The position numbers and the translations under genes were made by a program. A stretch of 64,000 nt of DNA from Glaucostegus cemiculus (Eukaryota). A model generated the notes under the pieces. That model ran no database searches, was not told the origin of the DNA, and saw nothing but the letters and a program-made list of their open reading frames with translations. How positions within the stretch are numbered: position 1 is the stretch's first letter; every line of letters starts with the position of its first letter. The DNA lies in assembly GCA_976551045.1 (NCBI GenBank), contig CDPCPM010000005.1, positions 20,832,001 to 20,896,000 on the forward strand, given 5' to 3'. Below, in pieces: positions 9,001 to 56,009 of the stretch.

Positions 9001-9789
9001 TGTGACCTACCTATCATTTTGGATGCATCGTTGTCCATTCTATGCACCTGAAAGACAGATGCCGCACCATCAGAATTTTGGCTAATATGTTTTAGCACCG
9101 TTGCAGACATTACAGACCTTAGAAACAAAGAAAAATGAGCATGAAAGTGTGGCAAGAGTTGCAATGATAGTTGTTCCTTCTTTAATGTGGAATCAATAAG
9201 TTGATGAAAGGCTAAAGGAGAGGAGCTCACTGGATTGTTCTTCCATAAAGCCAGAATGGATTCAACAGGTCTGAGTGGTCTCCTTCTAGTTGTAATCATT
9301 TTGCAATGCATGATGTCAGACATTGTATGATGAATTTGTACGTAAAGTAGTTAAGGCTCAGTAAAGATTTCTGCAAAACAAAAGTTTTATTTTCTTCCAT
9401 TTGTAAAATAAAATTGCTTCAAAAATATTTATGACTTAATTTTTTTAAGGGACATAGTCTTTGTGATGTTACTTTCTGACAGAAACACATATTTCTAAGC
9501 AGGGTTATTGTAGTGATGAGATGTGCCAGTGCTAATCATATTTCATGGTCAACTATATGAAGCCATTGAGACCAGCCAAATGCACAGACAAAGGATTGAA
9601 CTTTGTACCTTCCTGCTGTGGAGCACTCAATTATACAATAACCACATCAACTGAGCTATGGCAGGGAATGCTTTTGCTTCATTTTAATTGTTATTTGACT
9701 GGAGATTTCATTCCATGACCCATACTTGATAGCACTGGCACACAGTCTCACTTTCTGCATTTGCCCAGAATCAATGTGGGTTTGATTTT

Positions 9790-9837
9790 GGAGACACAAG
9801 AGACTGTAGACGCTGGAACCTGGAGCAACAAACAGGA
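9790..9837 (-). mobile_element. Very short Penelope-like terminus insertion
   Basis: gacacaagagactgtagacgctggaacctggagcaacaaaca matches the element end at 41454. Flanked by tttgatttt at 9781-9789 and 9838-9846 (possible TSD). Confidence 0.7.
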
Positions 9838-10504: not shown

Positions 10505-10605
10505 TCTAAGTTCTGATGCAAAGTTATTAACCTGAAACCTTAACTGTTTCACAACAGATGCTGCCTGACCTGTTATGTTTCTCCAGGATTTTCCTTTTTT
10601 TGTTC
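10505..10605 (+). mobile_element. Penelope-like terminal repeat relic with decayed hammerhead core
   Basis: agtt-ctgatgc-aaagttattaacct-gaaacctt-aact followed by cagatgctgcctgacctg. Confidence 0.7.
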
Positions 10606-11209
10606 ACTTTACAGTCATTCACCTCCACCCAAATCATTGAAAGAGAATTGATTATGCCTGGTCTAACATGGAACACATTCTTCAAAAATCAGAGCTATGC
10701 TGGCAAATCACTGGCGAACAGCTGGCAGCAAATTCAAGACATCCACTTCTGCAAAGGTGCGAAAATGCTAAACTTGCAGGCGCTTCCATGGGTTAATGCC
10801 AGCAAATCCATGTGAAACTGCCAGCATTTCTCTGCAAAATCATACTCAATGGATTTGAATATGGCATGTTCTTAGTGCACTGCTGAATGCTGTGAGCATC
10901 ATGTTAAATGGTCATAGCGCTTAACTGTGGTTTATTAATAATGCAGTAAAATTATTGTGCCTTGTTCATCATTAATCTACTCCTCTCCTGAAGTTTGGTG
11001 AAGTAGACTTTGGTCCTCTCTGGTATCTCACCATGATATAATTTAGTCATCTGTACGACTGATGGTATTTACTCAAAACTTGGGGGCTTCAATTGGGGTC
11101 AAATTTGACATGATTGAATAGCAGGGGTTGCTGGATAGTAATAAAAAGGGAACACTGGCCAATTTTCCTTTCATTATCCCAAGGTTTTGAGGACAAATAT
11201 AGCACCACT

Positions 11210-25830: not shown

Positions 25831-25944
25831 GGAAATCAAATTATCATCCTCCCTGATCTTTAAAGCCAATATTGGTTGCAGGGATTATCATCCTCTTGAG
25901 TAAATTGTTCAAAATTACCAGCATCTGCGGTTTTTAAAATTTAT

Positions 25945-26725
25945 AATCTGAAATAAAAATAGGAAATGCTGGAAACATTTAGCAGGTGAGGTGGTATCTG
26001 TGGAAAGAGAAACAGTTAACTTCTCAGGTTGAAGACCTTTTATCAAAAAAGGGAAAATGAAAGTAAGTTAGCTTTAATTTGTAGAGATGTTAGGGAAAGA
26101 AATGGAAAAGACAAGAAGAAATTTCTGGTAGGCTTATGTCAGAGTTGCCCAGCTGATCCAGATGTTTACTGAACCGTCTAGTTAAGTACTTAATGAGATC
26201 GGTTAGAGAGAGAGAGAGAAAAAAAAACGGGTCATGACAAAGCTGCGAAATGCAGCTTTTTGCAACACTTTCCAATGCAACTGCAGGAGACGCAACATCA
26301 ACACCTTCACCTCATCCTTACTTACCATCCAGGAATTCAAACAGTCCTTCATCTGATCTAGTGCACTGCATCCAGTGCTTACAATGTGCCCACCTCTACA
26401 TTGAAGAAACCAAACACTGATTGCGTGACCACTTTGCAGGGAAGGCCCTGAGCTTCCAGCTGACTGTTACTTTAATCTACCATTCTGTGGCCTTCTGTAC
26501 TGTTCTAACAAGGCCGAACGTGAACTTGAGCAATAGCACTTTGCCCTCCTTCTAGGCAAGTTGTAGATTTTGGGACTATCAAATTCAACAATTTCAGATT
26601 GCTCACTTTTTCTGGCCAGTTCTGTTGTAATGTTATCCACCTGTAATATTAACACTTTTTTTTCTCAGTTACTGCCTGATCTGCTAGACATTTCCAGCAT
26701 TCTCCCTTTGATTTCAGGTTTCAGC
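25945..26725. mobile_element. Penelope-like element relic: inverted terminal copy plus GIY-YIG endonuclease fragment
   Basis: 25945-26110 is a minus-orientation terminus. 26290-26600 (+) encodes decayed LVHCIQCLQCAHLYIEETKH*LRDHFA (GIY-YIG: VYCI.C..C...YIGET.R.L.DRF.EH), ending in ctgcctgatctgct...ccagcatt. Confidence 0.8.
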
Positions 26726-27882
26726 AACAGCTCTTACCAGCAATTACATCCTTAATATGGCCTTTTTTATTTTTTCTTTCTCTCTAACTGACCTTGTTCA
26801 TCTATTATATCAAAATTATTCTTTTAAAATGATAAATAATCTTTATTTCACTTTTAAAGAAAACTTTAAGGTATTTTAGCCTCTATCTTAATTTCCATTT
26901 TTCAATCATGGCATGGATGCTCAATAATGAGATCCCCAAGTATTGAAACCTGAAAGTAATCAAAGTTGGAAAAAATAAAATCCACACCTGAAATGGAAGA
27001 AAGCAGCCCACAAAGATCTTGCCACATCAGCAAGGGTGTCGTTGTTTTGCAACTGACTGCAAAATCCAGGCCACTAATGTTTTCTGAATACATGATAATC
27101 TAAATTTGTAACAGAACAACAAATAGATATTTAGTGCCCTACCTGATAATGTAGCTGAATGCCATTTTCAGTGGAAAACTTTTTTCTGCCTTCACCAATA
27201 TGGCCATACTGCTAATGAGGTGGTGTTCTAACAACTTTCTCAAAAGTCATATGAGGCAAAGCTTCTGCTTTGGGCACAATCAGACACTGTGTCTGGTACT
27301 CTGTATTTTCCTTTAAATATTCCTTGATGACCTGATGAGTTTGATATATTATAGTTGAAAATGGAATTAACATAAATGTCTATTTTTAAGTTGTCAATGA
27401 TCCCATTACACTCCATTAAATGTTAAATATCTGTAAATGTCCTTAAAAACCCATACAGAACTATTTACTGATTACAATTGTGCATGGTAGATGGGTTCTA
27501 AGTAAAACAATTAAACAGAAACTTTTAAAAGCCTTATGTTCAAGTAGCAGATTAGTTTTAAGAGCCTTTGAAGGCCCAAGAACAAATGCAATTAGTGCAA
27601 ATTTATGATGCTGATTATTTTTATCTGGAGCCACAGAGAGCTTGATGGACACAAGTGTGTATGTTTTTTCTAAGTGTGAAGAAAAATTTGCACTGGATGC
27701 AATTTGGATTTGTTTTCAATATTTTAGTGCAAATTTGACCAAAATTGTGTGGGGAAAAAAAAGAGTTCAAACACAGGCCAATATATTTTGAAATATACAA
27801 GGAAAATGCATAACACTAAAAGGTATTGAATATGAAGAAAACAAAGTGAAAATAATCACACAAATAGAGAGTGAGATGTTCC

Positions 27883-32189: not shown

Positions 32190-32367
32190 ACAGAATGTTT
32201 CTTTGGCTCCTCCCTCCCATTTTTTTTTTTGCATCTTGAAGCTTGTTTTACTTCTATATCTTCTCAATTCTGATAAAGGTTATCACCCTGAATGCTGGCT
32301 GACCTGTTGAGTATTTTCAACATTTTCTATTTTATTTCAGGTTTTCAGCATCTGCAACTTCTGCTTT
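32190..32367 (+). mobile_element. Penelope-like terminal repeat relic
   Basis: caattctgataaaggttatcaccctgaa...gctgacctgttgagtattttcaacattttc...cagcatctgca. Confidence 0.65.
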
Positions 32368-39946: not shown

Positions 39947-40303
39947 ACTAGGGCTCTATGATGCCACTCAGTCAAATGCTGCGTTTGATGCTAAGTAGAA
40001 TCATTCTCACCTTGCCTCTGGAATTCAGCTAATTGATCTGTATTTGACTCAAAACTTTCATGATATCTGGAGCAGAGTATCTTGGCAAATTGGCCATCAG
40101 TGAGTAGGTTATTTGTGAGTAAATGCTATTTGACATTCCTGACAATGATGGGTAGTAATTAATTGAATTGGATTTGTCCTGATCTTTGTCAACAGCATAT
40201 ACGTGGGCAAATTTCCATCTTGTTTGATATATGCCAATGCTGCTACTATATTGGAAATGTAGCTAGTTCTGGAGCGCAGGTTTTCAAAACAATAGCAGAG
40301 TGT

Positions 40304-40433
40304 CCTGAAGAAGGGTCCCGACTTGAAAGGTTGACTGCCTGCTTTCATCCACGGATGTTGCCTGGCCTGCTGAGTTCAACCAGCATCAGTGTTTTTCATC
40401 TAGATTCCAGCATCTGCAGTCCTTTGCTTCTCA
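40304..40433 (+). mobile_element. 130-bp solo Penelope-terminal element with hammerhead-like 5' end and 10-bp TSD
   Basis: Flanked by agcagagtgt at 40294-40303 and 40434-40443. Starts cctgaagaagggtcccgacttgaaaggttgac and ends ccagcatctgcagtcctttgcttctca. Confidence 0.85.
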
Positions 40434-41304
40434 AGCAGAGTGTTTTTCTGTTCCCATATCTTTTGTTGTATCCAGTGCTCTGAGCTATTCTTGATATCAA
40501 ATTGGGCTGAAGGCTGGCCCCTGTGCTGGTGGGGATCTCATAGAAGCCAAGATAAACTGTCCATTCAGCACTTCTGGCTATTTGTGAATGCTTTAGCCTC
40601 ACATGCTGGACTCCACCATCACTGAGGATGGGAACAGTTTTAGATCATCCTTCTCCCATAATCTATTTAATTACCTACACATTCATGACTCGATTGGTAA
40701 GATGGCAGGGCTGTGATCTGATTCATTCTCTGATTCTACAGAAGGATATCAGCCTTGGTTTACTGCTTCAGAATGGGCTGTAAGCTCTGAAAGTACTTTG
40801 TGGCCATGGCCCTTGTTTATTAAGTACTACAGATTGGAAAAGGCTTCAATTTCCTCCCATCCTACAACTGTCTTCCATAGACACATGCCTACACACCCAA
40901 CCACAGCTCCCAGCTGTAAACCTGCTCATGCTCTGAGCTCCTGACAATGCCCTGCCCCAGCGCCTCTTTTTCGAGCAACAATCTAACACCACACTCTCAG
41001 TTCTGAGGACATCCCCGCCATGATCCAGTTCCGGCTTCCCTGCTGTCAGTCCGGGCCATGCTCTGAAATGCCACTCCTGGTCTTGGGAGCAAACTGCCCC
41101 TGCCCCCACCACATCCTGCTGGTCCTGGTTGTGGCCTTGACCACATTCAGTGCCTTGCATCCAGTTTCTGCCATGTTCTGGCTTGTAACTTCCAGTCCCG
41201 GCAAGTTCCTGGCTATGCTCTGACACACCCTACCCACCCTCCCTGCCAAATCTGTCTTTTTACTTCCAAAGTTCCCATCAACTCTCTCCAGACTTTACCA
41301 CACA

Positions 41305-41660
41305 CTTATAGTTGAGAGCAAATTACTGTGGACAACTAAGCTACAGATCCACACATCTTTGGGATGTGTTGCCTGCTTGGGAACTGGAGCAGCAGGGGGA
41401 AACCCACACACTCACAAGGAGAACGTGACAATTCCACACTGACAGCATTGGTGACACAAGAGAATGCAGATGCTGGAATATGGAGCAAAAACCAAACTGA
41501 TGCAGGGTCAGGCAGCATCTGTAGAGGGAAATGGATAGTTGACATTTTGGGTAGAGACCCTTCATCCAGTCTGGAGATTCCACACTGACAGTATCGGTGG
41601 TCAGGACTGAACATGGGTCACTGGAGCTGTGAGGCGGTAACTCTAATAACTGTGCTTCCT
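41305..41660 (-). mobile_element. HE1-type V-SINE interrupted by a 123-bp Penelope-terminal insertion
   Basis: Reverse complement: gcctcacagctccagtgacccatgttcagtcctgacc (tRNA head) ... ttctccttgtgagtgtgtgggtttccccc...cacatcccaaagatgtgt (V-domain). Insert at 41454-41576. Confidence 0.85.
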
Positions 41661-49194: not shown

Positions 49195-49960
49195 TATTCA
49201 GTAGCCTGAACTAATGATCCAGTGAGATGAGTTCAAATCCCATCATGGCATGTGGAGATGTAAATAGAGGAAATAAATTCTGAATTTAAAACAGAACTTG
49301 TGGTGGTAGTAGTGACCATGACAACTTCCAAATTGTTGTATAATGCTAGCTAGATCATTTATGTCCTGGGAAAGAAAAAACAAATTGCTGAGGGAACTCA
49401 GCAGGTCAGGCAACATCTGTGGAGGCAGAAGGATAGTCAATGTTTTGGGTCAAGACCCTGCCCCAGGATTGAGCATGTAGAGGATAGATGGCCAGTATAA
49501 AGAGGTGTGTGAGAGGCAGGAGATGAGTAGAACCAGGTGAGGAGGGGGATGATGGACAGGTGCAGCCAGATAGGGGAAGGGGAGGGTGGAGGTAGGGACA
49601 AATGCTGGAAGATAATAAGTGGAGGCAACAAAGGGCTACAGATTCTGTAAAATGATAAGGAAGGTGCAAACAGACAAGGGAGGGATGATGGGCAGTGGGA
49701 GAGGGGATTGGTGACCTAGTGGGTTAAGTGTGTGGGTTATAGGCAGAGGAGAAACAAACTGGGTAATGGGGGGATGGGGAGGTTTGGAATGAGGAGGAGG
49801 TGAGATAACCTGAGTGGATCAGTATGAACTAGAAAGAAACACAGTATCTGTAGTCTCCTGTGATTTCATCATCTATCCTTGCCTAGTTTGACCCACATTC
49901 AATGTTGTGGTTGATTCCTAACTGCTCTTTGCTTCAGGGACAATTTAGACTGGCCGATAA
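49195..49960 (+). mobile_element. tRNA-derived SINE split by a minus-strand Penelope-like terminus (49372-49850)
   Basis: SINE head gagttcaaatcccatcatggca...agtgaccatgacaact, resuming after 49860 (gacccacattcaatgttgtggttgattcctaactgc). The insert has ggaactcagcaggtcaggcaacatctgtggagg followed by a purine-rich tract. Confidence 0.8.
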
Positions 49961-51624: not shown

Positions 51625-53038
51625 AGTGGCACTGATTGTTGGCAAACAGAGGAATGAGGTTTGGCTCTGAGATGGGCACACTTTTGCAGTTACCGTGACA
51701 TCCTTGTTGGATTTTGGGTCTGTTCAGTTGGCGTATTAATGACAGGAGGATTGGCAGTCGGAAAGACTCCCAGGACTGTTACATGGATGCGCCTGCCAGG
51801 GCAAAGGAGAAATGTATTACTTGGAAGAGAGCTGCGGACACAGCGCAGCGCATCACGGACACCAGCCTCCCTTCCTTGGACTTTGTCTTTACCTCTCGTT
51901 GTCTTAGTGAAGCAGCCAGCATAATCAAAGACCCCACCCACCCAGAACATTCTCTCTTCTCTCCTCTTCCATCAGGTAGAAGATACAGGTGCTTGAGGGC
52001 ATGTACCACCAGACTAAAGGACAGCTTCTACCCCACTGATAAGGCTATTGAATGGTTTCCTTATACAAATGAGGGGGACTATGACCTCACGATCTACTTG
52101 TTGAGACCTTGCACCTTATTGCACTGCACTTTCTCTGTATCTGTGACACTTTACTCTGTACTGGTAGTTTTTACCTGTACTACATCAATGCACTTTGTAC
52201 TAACTCAATGTAACTGCATTGTGTAATGAACCGACTTGTATGATCAGTTTGTAAGACAAGCTTTTCACTGTACCTCGATAGAAGTGACAATGATATACCA
52301 ATACCAACCTGCCTCCATAACAAAGTCAACAGATCAAGATGACGCATTAAGGTTATGCTGCAACACACAACTCTTGTGATTGATGAGGGAAGACCATGCA
52401 ACAATATTTGGTCTGTTCACATCTCAAGGATGATCTGATCACGTCAATGGAAAAATCTGACTGGACACGAGTTCAGAGTAGGAGTAGGTCACTCGCTCCC
52501 TCAAACTATTGTCATTTAATAAGATAACAGCTGATCTGATAGTAACCTCCTCTCCACATTCCTGCCTACCTGTTTTTCCCATTGCTGACCAAAAATGTAT
52601 TTACCTTTGTCATAAAAACATTCAACAATTCTGCTTCCATTTCCCTTTAAGGAAGAGAGTTCTAAAGACTCATGACTTTTTGAGAAAACAAAAACTTTAG
52701 CTCATCTCAGTGCCTCTTACTTCTCAAAGAATCACAAGAGTTGTGTGTTGCAGCATAACCTCAGTGTATCATCTTGATCTGTTGACTTTGTTATGGAGGC
52801 AGTTGAGGACCTTTTCAAGTAGTGTATTTTCCCTATGCCCTGGCTGGCATCTGGTGGGATAGTCCATGTAACAGTCCCAGGGGTCTTTTCAACTGCCAGT
52901 CCTCCAATCATTATTCATCCTTTAAATATATACCAACTGGACAGAGCAAAATCCAAAAAGGATGTCACGGTAACCGTAAAACTGTGCCCATCTCAGATCC
53001 AACTTTCATTTTTCTATCTGCCAACAATCAGTGGCACT
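51625..53038. repeat. ~300-bp inverted duplication: left arm 51625-51828 plus 52309-52381, right arm 52730-53038
   Basis: The reverse complement of 52730-53038 aligns to the left arm once the Rex1 insert is removed; the proximal 73 bp match at 69/73. Confidence 0.92.
51826..52308 (+). mobile_element. Rex1/Babar-clade non-LTR retrotransposon 3' fragment
   Basis: ORF segment RAADTAQRITDTSLPSLDFVFTSRCLSEAASIIKDPTHPEHSLFSPLPSGRRYRCLRACTTRLKDSFYP; tail ttttcactgtacc...gtgacaat..(ccaata)n. Confidence 0.9.
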
Positions 53039-53930
53039 TTAGCTCATCTCAGTGGCTCTTACTTCTCACAGGAGGATAAGACAACCAATCCATTCCAGTA
53101 TTGGTCCATTAAGGCATGGAAGGATATGGACCTTGGATGCAGGCACATGAGATTAATGTAGATGGGCAGAGGTCAGCATGGACGTGGTGGGTTGAATGGT
53201 TGTTTCTTGCTGTTCAACCTTATGACTGTAGTAGCTGCTTCCAATGCATTAGCACCCTTCCTTAGATAAGGAGACCAATACTGTACAAGGTATTCCAAAT
53301 GCAATTTCACCAATTCCCTACATAGATAAAATGTAACCTCCCTACTTATTATTTTGTTTGCTTCTGAATAAACTATAGCATTTTGTTTGCTTTAATAATT
53401 GTTTACTGTTCCTGCATTCTATCATTTGCAAATCATGCAGTCAGACACCCCGATCCTTCTGCATCTTAGAGCTTTGCATTCTCTCACTATTTAAACAATA
53501 TGCATTTTAATTTCCCTGCCAAAATGGACAATTTCACATTTACCACTTCATACTTTATATGTCTGATTTTTTTTTTGTGACTTTTTACTTGACCTATCTA
53601 TATTTCTTTATAGTCTCTTAATACCATCATCACACTTGGTTTCCTACCTCCTTTTTCATTAGCAAATTTAGCAACAATATCTTCAGTGCCTTCATCCAAA
53701 TCAGTTATACAAATTGGAAAAACATGGAGACACCAGCACTGATCCTTGTGGCACACCACAGGCTGAAAAGGACACTTTTACTGTCTATTCTTTGATTCCT
53801 TGTTGCCAACTAGCTTTTTTTCTTTCCTACATCTTTTGATGTAGCACCTTATCAAATGTTTTGTGGAAATCTAAGTACAGTATATCTACTGGTTTCCCTT
53901 TATCCACAACATGTTTTACTTCAAAGACTG
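52470..53930 (-). mobile_element. Fragmented CR1 LINE hosting the inverted insertion and a plus-strand CR1 tail (53110-53230)
   Basis: Reversed tail gtaggagtaggtcactc at the left. RT motif VDKGKPVDILYLDFHKTFDKVLH in ORF 53827-54021; gatccttgtggcacacca = GVPQGS reversed. Confidence 0.85.
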
Positions 53931-54886: not shown

Positions 54887-55569
54887 AGGAGTTACTTTTG
54901 CCTTTGTAGGCTCGGGATCATGCCAGAAGCTGCTGCTCCTGATGTCTGCCACACCTCCCTCTTTGCTGCTCAATACAGGAATAAGGTCACCATACTGTAG
55001 AAGAGAAGATCTCGTCTATTCTTTTCTTCAGCTCACCAGAGTAAGCATAGGCCTCATTGTTAACTCCTCCAAAATGCAGGCATTTGTGCTCATGCCTTTA
55101 CTGAAATCTTTCTGGCAACCTCCTGGCAGCTGTAGGACCCTGTGAGCCCATGGCCTCCTACAGTCACTTCTCCATTAGCTGTCAAGACTTATTGATCCCT
55201 TGGGAACACACTTACAATCTCTTCCATCATTGAAGCAACCATTCATTAAGTAGCAACTCCCTTTTGTAGCTAGAAGAGTGCTGTTTTCTTTGTCTATGCC
55301 CATGTAAGTGCTCGGTACAAAGATTGCACCTACTGTGCTATTAGGCTGAAAACTGCTAGAACTTGAAATACAACAACAAGGTATGTCACACTGAAACATA
55401 AGTTTCAGAATGGAATTACACAGGAAAACCCAGCAGGGCTGTTCTGCAATCCTCTTAAATGACGATCTCGCTCTTCATGCAACTTTCACAAATAGCATTT
55501 GGGTAATCCATAACATGTAATAGCCTTCACTTTCATCCTTACAAGAACATGATGGTCCTGAGATCTTGG

Positions 55570-55740
55570 AGAGACAAGAGATTCTGTAGATGCTGGAATT
55601 TGGAGCAACACACACACAATGCTGGAGGAACTCAGCAGGTCAGGCAGCATCTATGGAGGGTTTTGACTCGAAATGTCAACTATTTCCTTCTATAGATGCT
55701 GCCTGACCTGCTGAGTTCCTTCAGCATTTTGTGTGTGTTG
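55570..55740. mobile_element. Inverted (fold-back) pair of Penelope-like termini
   Basis: 55618-55654 is the reverse complement of 55692-55728 with 1 mismatch in 37 bp; the arms extend over about 54 bp. Confidence 0.9.
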
Positions 55741-56009
55741 TCTTGAGTTCTTGTTATTTCTCCTTTTGAACTGGTCCATCCTAATCTTTCTCCATAACCA
55801 CTTTGAAATATATGAAGCTATGGTCAATTTCTTCAAAACGCTCCCTCACTGACATCCTGGCGTGTCTTCTTCATGACTGCATCAATGTGTTGGGCCTAGG
55901 ATGAGATACTGACGCTCAGGAAGGAGCCTAGTAGGCTCCTCAAATGAGGACATATGGGCAGAGATGAAGGACAATAAAGGTGTTGTCTCTTTGCTGGGGG
56001 TGTATTATA

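What the first reader, a model, noticed from the sequence alone, without database searches (positions are those of the whole stretch)
40294..40443. Short (~125 bp) mobile Penelope-terminal units headed by a minimal hammerhead ribozyme
Seen: seven copies align (10509-10545 +, 26012-26046 -, 32265-32292 +, 40302-40335 +, 41535-41575 -, 49431-49471 -, 55656-55683 +). The best-preserved subfamily gives the consensus CAGTC-CTGATGA-A-GGGTC(YY)GACCC-GAAAC-GTC-GACTR. This has the hammerhead core (CUGANGA...GAAA...UH), a stem II with an extra A after A9, a CAGUC/GACUG stem I, and a minimal ACGU-palindromic stem III. A second subfamily shows a compensatory stem I (AGTT/AACT at 10509-10545). Many differences are CpG decay (CCCGAAACGTCGAC to CCCAAAATGTCAAC). 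Known: minimal type-I hammerheads occur in Penelope-like element terminal repeats and are thought to work as dimers. Inference: copies at 40304-40433 and 41454-41576 inserted alone, start right at the ribozyme and carry TSDs, so they behave like a non-autonomous ribozyme-bearing retroelement mobilised by the GIY-YIG Penelope family (relic at 26290-26600). No copy in this window has an intact core.
Basis: partly seen in the sequence, partly recalled or inferred. Interest (0 to 1): 0.7.

Follow-up and report, generated by a model that had tools for sequence, protein, structure and literature searches.

The report
Penelope stubs starting at ribozyme edge
These short repeats are cut-off ends of ordinary full-size Penelope jumping genes in what is likely a ray genome, not a new mobile element; about one in five begins at the front edge of a predicted self-cutting RNA motif rather than at its predicted cut site, likely because that is where the element's transcript starts.

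Summary
The repeats, the hammerhead motif and both target-site duplications are real. The units are not a separate non-autonomous element: the same sequence runs upstream into a 3' UTR and an RT + GIY-YIG ORF and downstream into the ORF start, in both large subfamilies tested (A, and C, to which 40304 belongs). It is the known Penelope pseudo-LTR: minimal hammerhead, first codons, optional ~40-bp tail. Of 144 copies picked by a downstream anchor, 88 extend further upstream, 25 start inside, and 31 start at -7..+1 of the core (6-fold excess, p=5e-12). There is no excess at the predicted cut, so the templates were likely uncleaved. An extra G precedes 330 of 645 copies starting at A(-4) of an initiator-like motif, moderate evidence for a capped start. 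In 29 of 33 head-to-head inserts one arm is short and one tailed, and fold-back of one cDNA fails in 18 of 29, pointing to two coordinated primings. The scan reported these Penelope stubs before elsewhere in this genome; the end statistics are what is added. Known class, modest mechanistic interest.

The parts
40294..40303 (+). Left target-site duplication (10 bp); its last two bases also match positions -3,-2 of the element (microhomology)
40304..40433 (+). 5'-truncated subfamily C Penelope copy: hammerhead, start of ORF and tail (numbering: +1 = 40305)
40302..40337 (+). Minimal hammerhead motif; core letters intact, 15.2-16.2 pair and two stem II pairs damaged; predicted cut between 40332 and 40333
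   Evidence: sequence
40434..40443 (+). Right target-site duplication
41454..41576 (-). 5'-truncated copy (mixed cluster D) starting at about -7, tailed, inserted into an older repeat
41431..41445 (+). 15-bp TSD, copy 1 (copy 2 at 41577-41591); 41446-41453 is filler
41577..41591 (+). 15-bp TSD, copy 2
10509..10618 (+). Subfamily B copy starting at about -4; stem I AGTT/AACT
25933..26047 (-). Subfamily B end, inverted, upstream of the relic; likely the inverted 5' arm of that insertion
   Evidence: (I13); link to the relic inferred from layout
26213..26539 (+). Decayed GIY-YIG C-terminal coding relic with stops and frameshifts
26622..26727 (+).
32265..32357 (+). Subfamily B-like copy with an internal deletion across the cut site
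49370..49610 (-). Copy that extends about 140 bp upstream of the hammerhead into 3' UTR
55568..55740 (.). Head-to-head palindrome: tailed inverted arm plus short direct arm starting near +8, between 12-bp repeats (10 of 12 alike) at 55556-55567 and 55741-55752
   Evidence: (I5, D4)
9788..9834 (-). Tail-only fragment
   Evidence: D4

Best explanation
The units are 5'-truncated copies of full-size endonuclease-bearing Penelope families, likely made by the element's own reverse transcriptase from uncleaved, ORF-containing RNA, and the excess that begins at the ribozyme's front edge likely marks run-off at a capped transcription start. Steps. Shown: the unit is the last 95 or 135 bp of the element and also its first bases (hammerhead, then ORF start); 3' ends fall at two sites about 40 nt apart; 5' ends are scattered with one pile-up at -7..+1 and none at the cut; head-to-head inserts pair one short with one tailed arm. 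Inferred from the anole element (PMC11167929): GIY-YIG nicks both strands, RT starts internally at +93 or +132 on an RNA that runs on into the ORF. Inferred here: when RT starts in the first pLTR of a transcript that begins at A(-4) it can only copy about 100-135 nt, giving the short unit; starts in a downstream tandem pLTR give the longer truncated copies; each target end is primed separately, one at each start site, giving the palindromes. The stubs lack the downstream ORF stretch and would be dead ends. Confidence: truncated-Penelope identity about 0.9, capped-start explanation about 0.5, two coordinated primings about 0.6.
For: Unit lies 321-375 bp after the GIY-YIG stop in 17 of 30 protein-picked loci by a strict motif, and in all 8 printed; subfamily C likewise joined to RT and GIY-YIG. 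Unit continues into the ORF N-terminus in L162, L178, L577, L587. Only 48 genome hits cross tail into ORF against thousands of unit ends (vs 17, 39, 40); 9 of 30 of these are partial tandems joined near +183..+201, so templates reached beyond the tail. 3' ends: 53 short, 91 tailed of 144, 48 at +132. 5' ends: 31 of 144 at -7..+1, 6-fold, p=5e-12; 8 of 70 at -3..-1 in C. No peak at +29: 4 of 144 at +25..+32 in A; flat over +24..+34 in 84 usable of 100 listed C copies, p=0.76. G before A(-4) in 330 of 645 against 0.28 background; 22 of 33 in C; both -4 starts in an independent set. Extra G marks capped full-length L1 inserts (PMC11702581, passage). Upstream of peak copies is neither shared nor an element exon, 0 of 20 solo copies. 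Palindromes: 29 of 33 short+tailed (p=5e-6); short arm reaches further 5' in 18 of 29.
Against: Control junctions are also G-rich: 43 of 100 before -3 ends and 42 of 100 before +8 ends (27 of 69 after dropping 31 rows that looked like mutated longer copies); -4 versus pooled controls p=0.025, versus +8 alone p=0.076. Ends at -3 (783) outnumber ends at -4 (645). The pile-up sits at -5..-3 in A and -3..-2 in C although the upstream letters are the same (hand tallies; p=0.0015), tracking stem I length (5 vs 3 bp), which a fixed start site does not explain. No G-bearing solo copy had a TSD that would prove the G untemplated, and 3 of 15 G cases viewed were templated by the inverted arm. No full-length copy starting at -4 and no intact ORF was found. 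In D. virilis transcription starts 46 bp plus a 75-bp intron upstream of this point (PMC2377424, PMC4209133). The anchored C set showed 8 of 70 ends at +25..+32 before the larger search flattened it.
Confidence: 0.6

Rival explanations
1. Same truncated-Penelope origin, but the 5' pile-up is set by RNA structure or a bound protein: RT stops, or an exonuclease-trimmed RNA ends, at the 5' strand of hammerhead stem I, and the two cDNAs can anneal through stem I complementarity.
For: Edge at -5 in A (5-bp stem I) and -3 in C (3-bp stem I) with identical upstream letters; about 9 of 100 listed A copies join an inverted arm ending at the 5' edge to +29 through stem I letters (by eye); the anole hammerhead is protein-assisted (PMC11167929).
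Against: Does not predict the extra G before A(-4); stem I would already be unwound when RT reaches its 5' strand (inference); stems are weak, z -1.7 (A) and 0.1 (C).
Confidence: 0.25
2. The polypyrimidine tract plus CAG just 5' of the core is the element's intron acceptor; ends pile up there because spliced RNA is copied or splicing factors block RT.
For: Acceptor-like tract in A, B and C; in D. virilis the intron end maps to the 5' end of helix I (PMC4209133, read).
Against: No shared upstream exon in 20 solo peak copies; the tested spliced junction is absent (2 one-mismatch hits); G at -5 is not what exon ends usually give (established consensus MAG, recalled); A ends are few at -2 (8 of 99). 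A factor-block version is not excluded.
Confidence: 0.1
3. One reading: a separate non-autonomous 125-bp element, released by ribozyme cleavage and moved in trans by Penelope proteins.
For: Solo inserts with TSDs (13 of 88 solo copies, control 0.5%); 5' pile-up at the ribozyme; PLE-derived non-autonomous retrozymes exist in vertebrates (bioRxiv 2026.07.22.740005).
Against: Continuous length series into 3' UTR and ORF; no ends at the cut; longer copies carry TSDs at a similar rate (8 of 43 far-class solo copies); no tandem arrays of the bare unit seen among sampled loci (not searched genome-wide); templates extend past the tail.
Confidence: 0.05

Closest known systems
EN+ Penelope-like elements, Penelope/Poseidon type, e.g. 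Adineta Pen2a (PMC3846280) and scheme in PMC8557442 Fig. 2
   Same: pLTR holding the first codons, optional 30-40 bp tail on one end, inverted 5'-truncated copy, partial tandems, TSDs of 7-17 bp, microhomology at 5' junctions.
   Different: Very high copy number here; 5' pile-up and arm asymmetry are quantified. Those papers state the one-ended tail qualitatively and propose self-priming, which 18 of 29 palindromes here do not fit.
Poseidon of Anolis carolinensis (PAc; PMC11167929)
   Same: Hammerhead at the pLTR-ORF junction, two RT start sites defining the tail, both strands extended, cleavage not needed, no RNA ends at the cut.
   Different: PAc ORF starts at stem II; here the in-frame ATG is about 20 nt past the cut (read from copies with defects). 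PAc data show no strand difference in start site; genomic palindromes here pair unlike sites.
[quoted passage not shown]
   Same: No helix III loop, palindromic 15.2-16.2, extra base between 9 and 10.1, G10.1-C11.1, mostly single dispersed motifs from truncated PLEs.
   Different: Shorter helix II (4-5 bp) and only 3-bp helix I in subfamily C; activity untested here.
Non-LTR (animal) retrozymes (bioRxiv 10.64898/2026.07.22.740005; PMC7229834 listing only)
   Same: Small, PLE-derived, hammerhead-bearing, dispersed monomers.
   Different: Retrozymes are tandem repeats with a ribozyme in each unit; these units grade into coding Penelope copies and do not start at the cut.

Membership tests
EN+ Penelope-like element | Single ORF with RT followed by C-terminal GIY-YIG, in cis with the repeat | tested here: met
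   Pfam RVT_1 and GIY-YIG hits are below curated cut-offs; ORFs seen only in decayed copies
EN+ Penelope-like element | pLTR includes ORF start; partial tandems | tested here: met
EN+ Penelope-like element | Optional 30-40 bp tail | tested here: met
   53 short and 91 tailed of 144
EN+ Penelope-like element | Inverted 5'-truncated copy at the 5' end | tested here: met
   9 of 20 long loci; 45 of 133 anchored arms
EN+ Penelope-like element | Clade (Poseidon vs Neptune/Nematis) by RT phylogeny | not tested
   No tree built; 'Poseidon-type' rests on domain order and layout
Minimal PLE hammerhead | CUGANGA, GAAA, UH core with stems I and II | tested here: met
   208 (A) and 756 (C) exact copies; majority letters of clusters A1, A2, C; intact in 23 of 179, 18 of 124, 18 of 76, 0 of 66 (B), 0 of 52 (D)
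Minimal PLE hammerhead | Extra base between 9 and 10.1, G10.1-C11.1, palindromic 15.2-16.2 | tested here: met
   against PMC4209133
Minimal PLE hammerhead | Stem covariation | tested here: inconclusive
   C-G to U-A at -1/+29 in B (34 rows TA), U-A to U.G in A2, but A.C mismatch at -4/+32 in C; A-versus-C changes fall at N7, loop II, H17 and that outer pair
Minimal PLE hammerhead | Self-cleavage, as dimer or protein-assisted | not testable with these tools
   Double-hammerhead fold -19.3 vs dimer optimum -34.9 kcal/mol; no Rfam hammerhead hit in window or 6 loci
Non-autonomous retrozyme / SINE-like element | Discrete element with fixed 5' end, independent of coding copies | tested here: not met
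   88 of 144 and 45 of 70 extend upstream
Non-autonomous retrozyme / SINE-like element | 5' end made by ribozyme cleavage | tested here: not met
Non-autonomous retrozyme / SINE-like element | Tandem arrays with a ribozyme per unit | tested here: inconclusive
   None noticed in sampled loci apart from partial tandems through the ORF start; no genome-wide tandem search
Non-autonomous retrozyme / SINE-like element | Abundant linear or circular unit-length RNA | not testable with these tools
   Fragmented RNA-seq of a related organism only

The most novel reading that the evidence does not exclude
In these vertebrate Penelope families the capped transcript starts on the first base pair of its own hammerhead, so internal priming in the first pLTR yields a fixed run-off cDNA, a strong-stop-like by-product that litters the genome; and a dimeric protein primes both target ends on one RNA, one at each of the two start sites, which explains the long-known inverted, one-tailed Penelope insertions without fold-back.
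Probability: 0.35. Interest if true: 0.55.

Novelty: new member of a known kind. Interest (0 to 1): 0.3.

Why it matters
As an element it is ordinary: Penelope ends with minimal hammerheads are published and were noted many times in this genome by the scan. The value is that thousands of fossil junctions act as a read-out of a transposition cycle that the literature still calls undefined. They argue that ribozyme cleavage does not make the transposed 5' end in vivo, offer a candidate start site, and give a sharp prediction (unlike start sites on the two target ends) that the existing anole in vitro system can test directly.

Tried and rejected
Rfam: no hammerhead match in the window or six loci; not diagnostic for motifs without stem III. 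Cleavage-generated 5' ends: a hint in 70 C copies vanished in the larger listing. Spliced copies via one candidate donor at the ORF stop: absent; other donors not tested. Shared first exon: absent. Fold-back of one cDNA for palindromes: fails in 18 of 29. A control for extra G at an internal AG near +78 gave only 5 hits and was unusable. First subfamily sorting by motifs mixed A into B and was replaced by clustering; B columns beyond +30 are misaligned and D is a mixed cluster. Sequencing runs: no RNA holder listed. Raw RNA reads of a related organism cover the unit on both strands with no pile-up of ends at -4 or +29; fragmented libraries cannot show ends, so this decides nothing. No intact ORF and no full-length copy starting at -4 were found among the loci fetched; not searched exhaustively. 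Literature: searches found no paper on these chondrichthyan motifs or on capped 5' ends of Penelope stubs; Repbase, Lunse et al. 2017 (not held) and the supplements of PMC4209133, PMC11167929 and the 2026 preprint were not seen and may bear on novelty.

Full report
Observation. The seven stretches are as described and are linked by an unseeded repeat search. A profile of the seven finds nine window hits at E<1e-8, two outside the seed set, and nothing better than E=0.1 on the reversed window. Both TSDs and the GIY-YIG relic are confirmed. The window lies in a 2.85-Gb genome; the nearest proteins are from rays, so the host is likely a cartilaginous fish. Numbering below: +1 is the C of the CTGANGA core (40305 for the focal copy); the predicted cut follows +28.

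What the unit is. The quoted motif occurs exactly 208 times (control 0). Many such copies run upstream into a pyrimidine-rich tract. Starting from protein instead, a GIY-YIG C-terminal fragment gave 37,304 first-look candidates and an RT fragment 9,729; a strict hammerhead motif lies 321-375 bp after the ORF stop in 17 of 30 loci and the unit is visible in all 8 printed. In L162 and L178 the unit runs straight on into the ORF N-terminus. The focal copy belongs to another subfamily, C (5,056 exact hits of a 30-mer; 756 exact intact hammerheads), which is likewise joined in cis to 3' UTR, GIY-YIG and RT and to the ORF start. The unit is therefore the pseudo-LTR: ribozyme, first codons and tail, as described for rotifer Pen2a (PMC3846280, passages) and anole Poseidon (PMC11167929, parts 1-2 of 4 read).

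The ribozyme. Clustering 532 copies from loci not chosen by hammerhead patterns gave A1, A2, C, B, a mixed D and a small deletion class. A1, A2 and C keep the core, the extra A, G10.1-C11.1 and the ACGU palindrome, all listed as typical of PLE minimal hammerheads in PMC4209133 (parts 1-2 of 4 read). A and C differ at N7, loop II, H17 and one outer stem I pair. Between subfamilies there is one compensatory change (B), one wobble (A2) and one broken pair (C), so covariation is suggestive only. Intact cores: 23 of 179, 18 of 124, 18 of 76, 0 of 66, 0 of 52. Rfam gives no hammerhead hit. The double-hammerhead fold is far above the dimer optimum. Activity is untested; published motifs of this type cleave poorly and the anole one needs protein.

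Ends. I took 144 subfamily A copies by an exact anchor at +40..+81 (first-listed matches, fetched in 41-44), which does not select on the 5' end. 3' ends are bimodal, 53 short and 91 tailed, 48 at +132, matching the two RT start sites of the anole element. 5' ends: 88 at -8 or beyond (28 reaching the ORF), 25 inside, 31 at -7..+1, a 6-fold excess (p=5e-12); 4 at +25..+32. In 70 C copies, 45 extend upstream, 8 end at -3..-1 and 8 at +25..+32. That last hint was tested on 100 of 208 listed genome matches: after dropping 16 internal deletions the 84 ends are flat over +24..+34; A looks equally flat by eye. So transposed RNA was likely uncleaved, in line with PMC11167929. TSDs of 7-17 bp were found for 16 of 45 palindromic arms and 13 of 88 solo copies, control 0.5%; 11 copies running past -600 were left out. 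RNA reads of a related organism show inversion joints at -6..+1 too.

Why the pile-up. Splicing: an acceptor-like tract ends at -3 and the D. virilis intron ends at helix I, but 0 of 20 solo peak copies share an upstream exon and one candidate spliced junction is absent. Start site: -6..+1 reads as an initiator consensus (recalled), and 330 of 645 copies whose match stops at A(-4) have G before it (background 0.28), the mark of capped full-length L1 inserts (PMC11702581, passage). Controls weaken this: 43 of 100 before -3 ends and 42 of 100 (27 of 69 cleaned) before +8 ends are G; p=0.025 pooled, and no TSD proved a G untemplated. Structure: hand tallies put the edge at -5..-3 in A (99 of 906 viewed, one duplicate skipped) and -3..-2 in C (100 of 635), p=0.0015, following stem I length. 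I rank capped start first, stem I second.

Palindromes and tandems. In 33 head-to-head inserts 29 pair a short with a tailed arm; independent choice gives at most half (p=5e-6). The one-ended tail is known qualitatively (PMC8557442, passages). Fold-back of a single cDNA needs the tailed arm to reach further upstream; it does in 11 and does not in 18, so the arms were primed separately, likely one at each start site of one RNA. Only 48 genome matches cross from tail into ORF; 9 of 30 viewed are partial tandems joined near +183..+201, showing that templates extended beyond the stub. The anole protein needs the first 172 nt of the ORF, so stubs would not move again (inference).

Comparison and verdict. 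Membership in EN+ Penelope elements is met on every feature tested; the clade was not tested by a tree. Membership in non-autonomous retrozymes (preprint 2026.07.22.740005, part 1 of 5 and passages) fails on fixed 5' end and on cleavage-made end. Other papers seen as passages: PMC2377424, PMC6765202. Searches found nothing on these motifs in sharks or rays or on capped Penelope stubs; Repbase and supplements were not seen. Earlier notes of this scan reached the same 'truncated Penelope' reading elsewhere in this genome; none holding all my end-mapping words was found. Verdict: real, a new member of a known kind, with junction statistics that make two mechanistic points testable. Interest 0.3.

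Noticed in passing
cluster D (window 49431-49471 -, L200, L280, many rows): A subfamily with C in place of the conserved A9 (CTGATGC-AGGGTC), 6 of 7 scored rows; either a dead lineage that still spread or a core variant.
   Followed up: partly
subfamily A 3' UTR, e.g. L104:1950-2000: The antisense strand carries perfect 5' splice-site matches (reverse complement of ACTCACCT), and a donor-like GTAA sits at the ORF stop; a ray gene model (P0003) includes the element's C-terminal ORF. Possible source of exonisation.
   Followed up: no
L001-L005, L026-L028: Intact-core copies embedded in a multi-kb duplicated block; L026 and L028 lie next to a receptor-like (GPCR-type by eye) ORF, so some intact copies spread by segmental duplication.
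   Followed up: no
L513-L538: Partial tandems join ORF position about +183..+201 to the next unit near -5 through a short pyrimidine microhomology, a recurrent template-jump site.
   Followed up: partly
window 41360-41660: The 41454-41576 copy interrupts an older, abundant repeat whose halves rejoin across the TSD (31 hits among loci).
   Followed up: partly
window 51625-53081: Nested inverted repeats of 51-92 bp at 84-95% (I1, I2, I7), an unrelated fold-back structure of about 1.4 kb.
   Followed up: no
G000:C49:2353614: A subfamily C copy with the whole hammerhead removed between two CCTG microhomologies.
   Followed up: no
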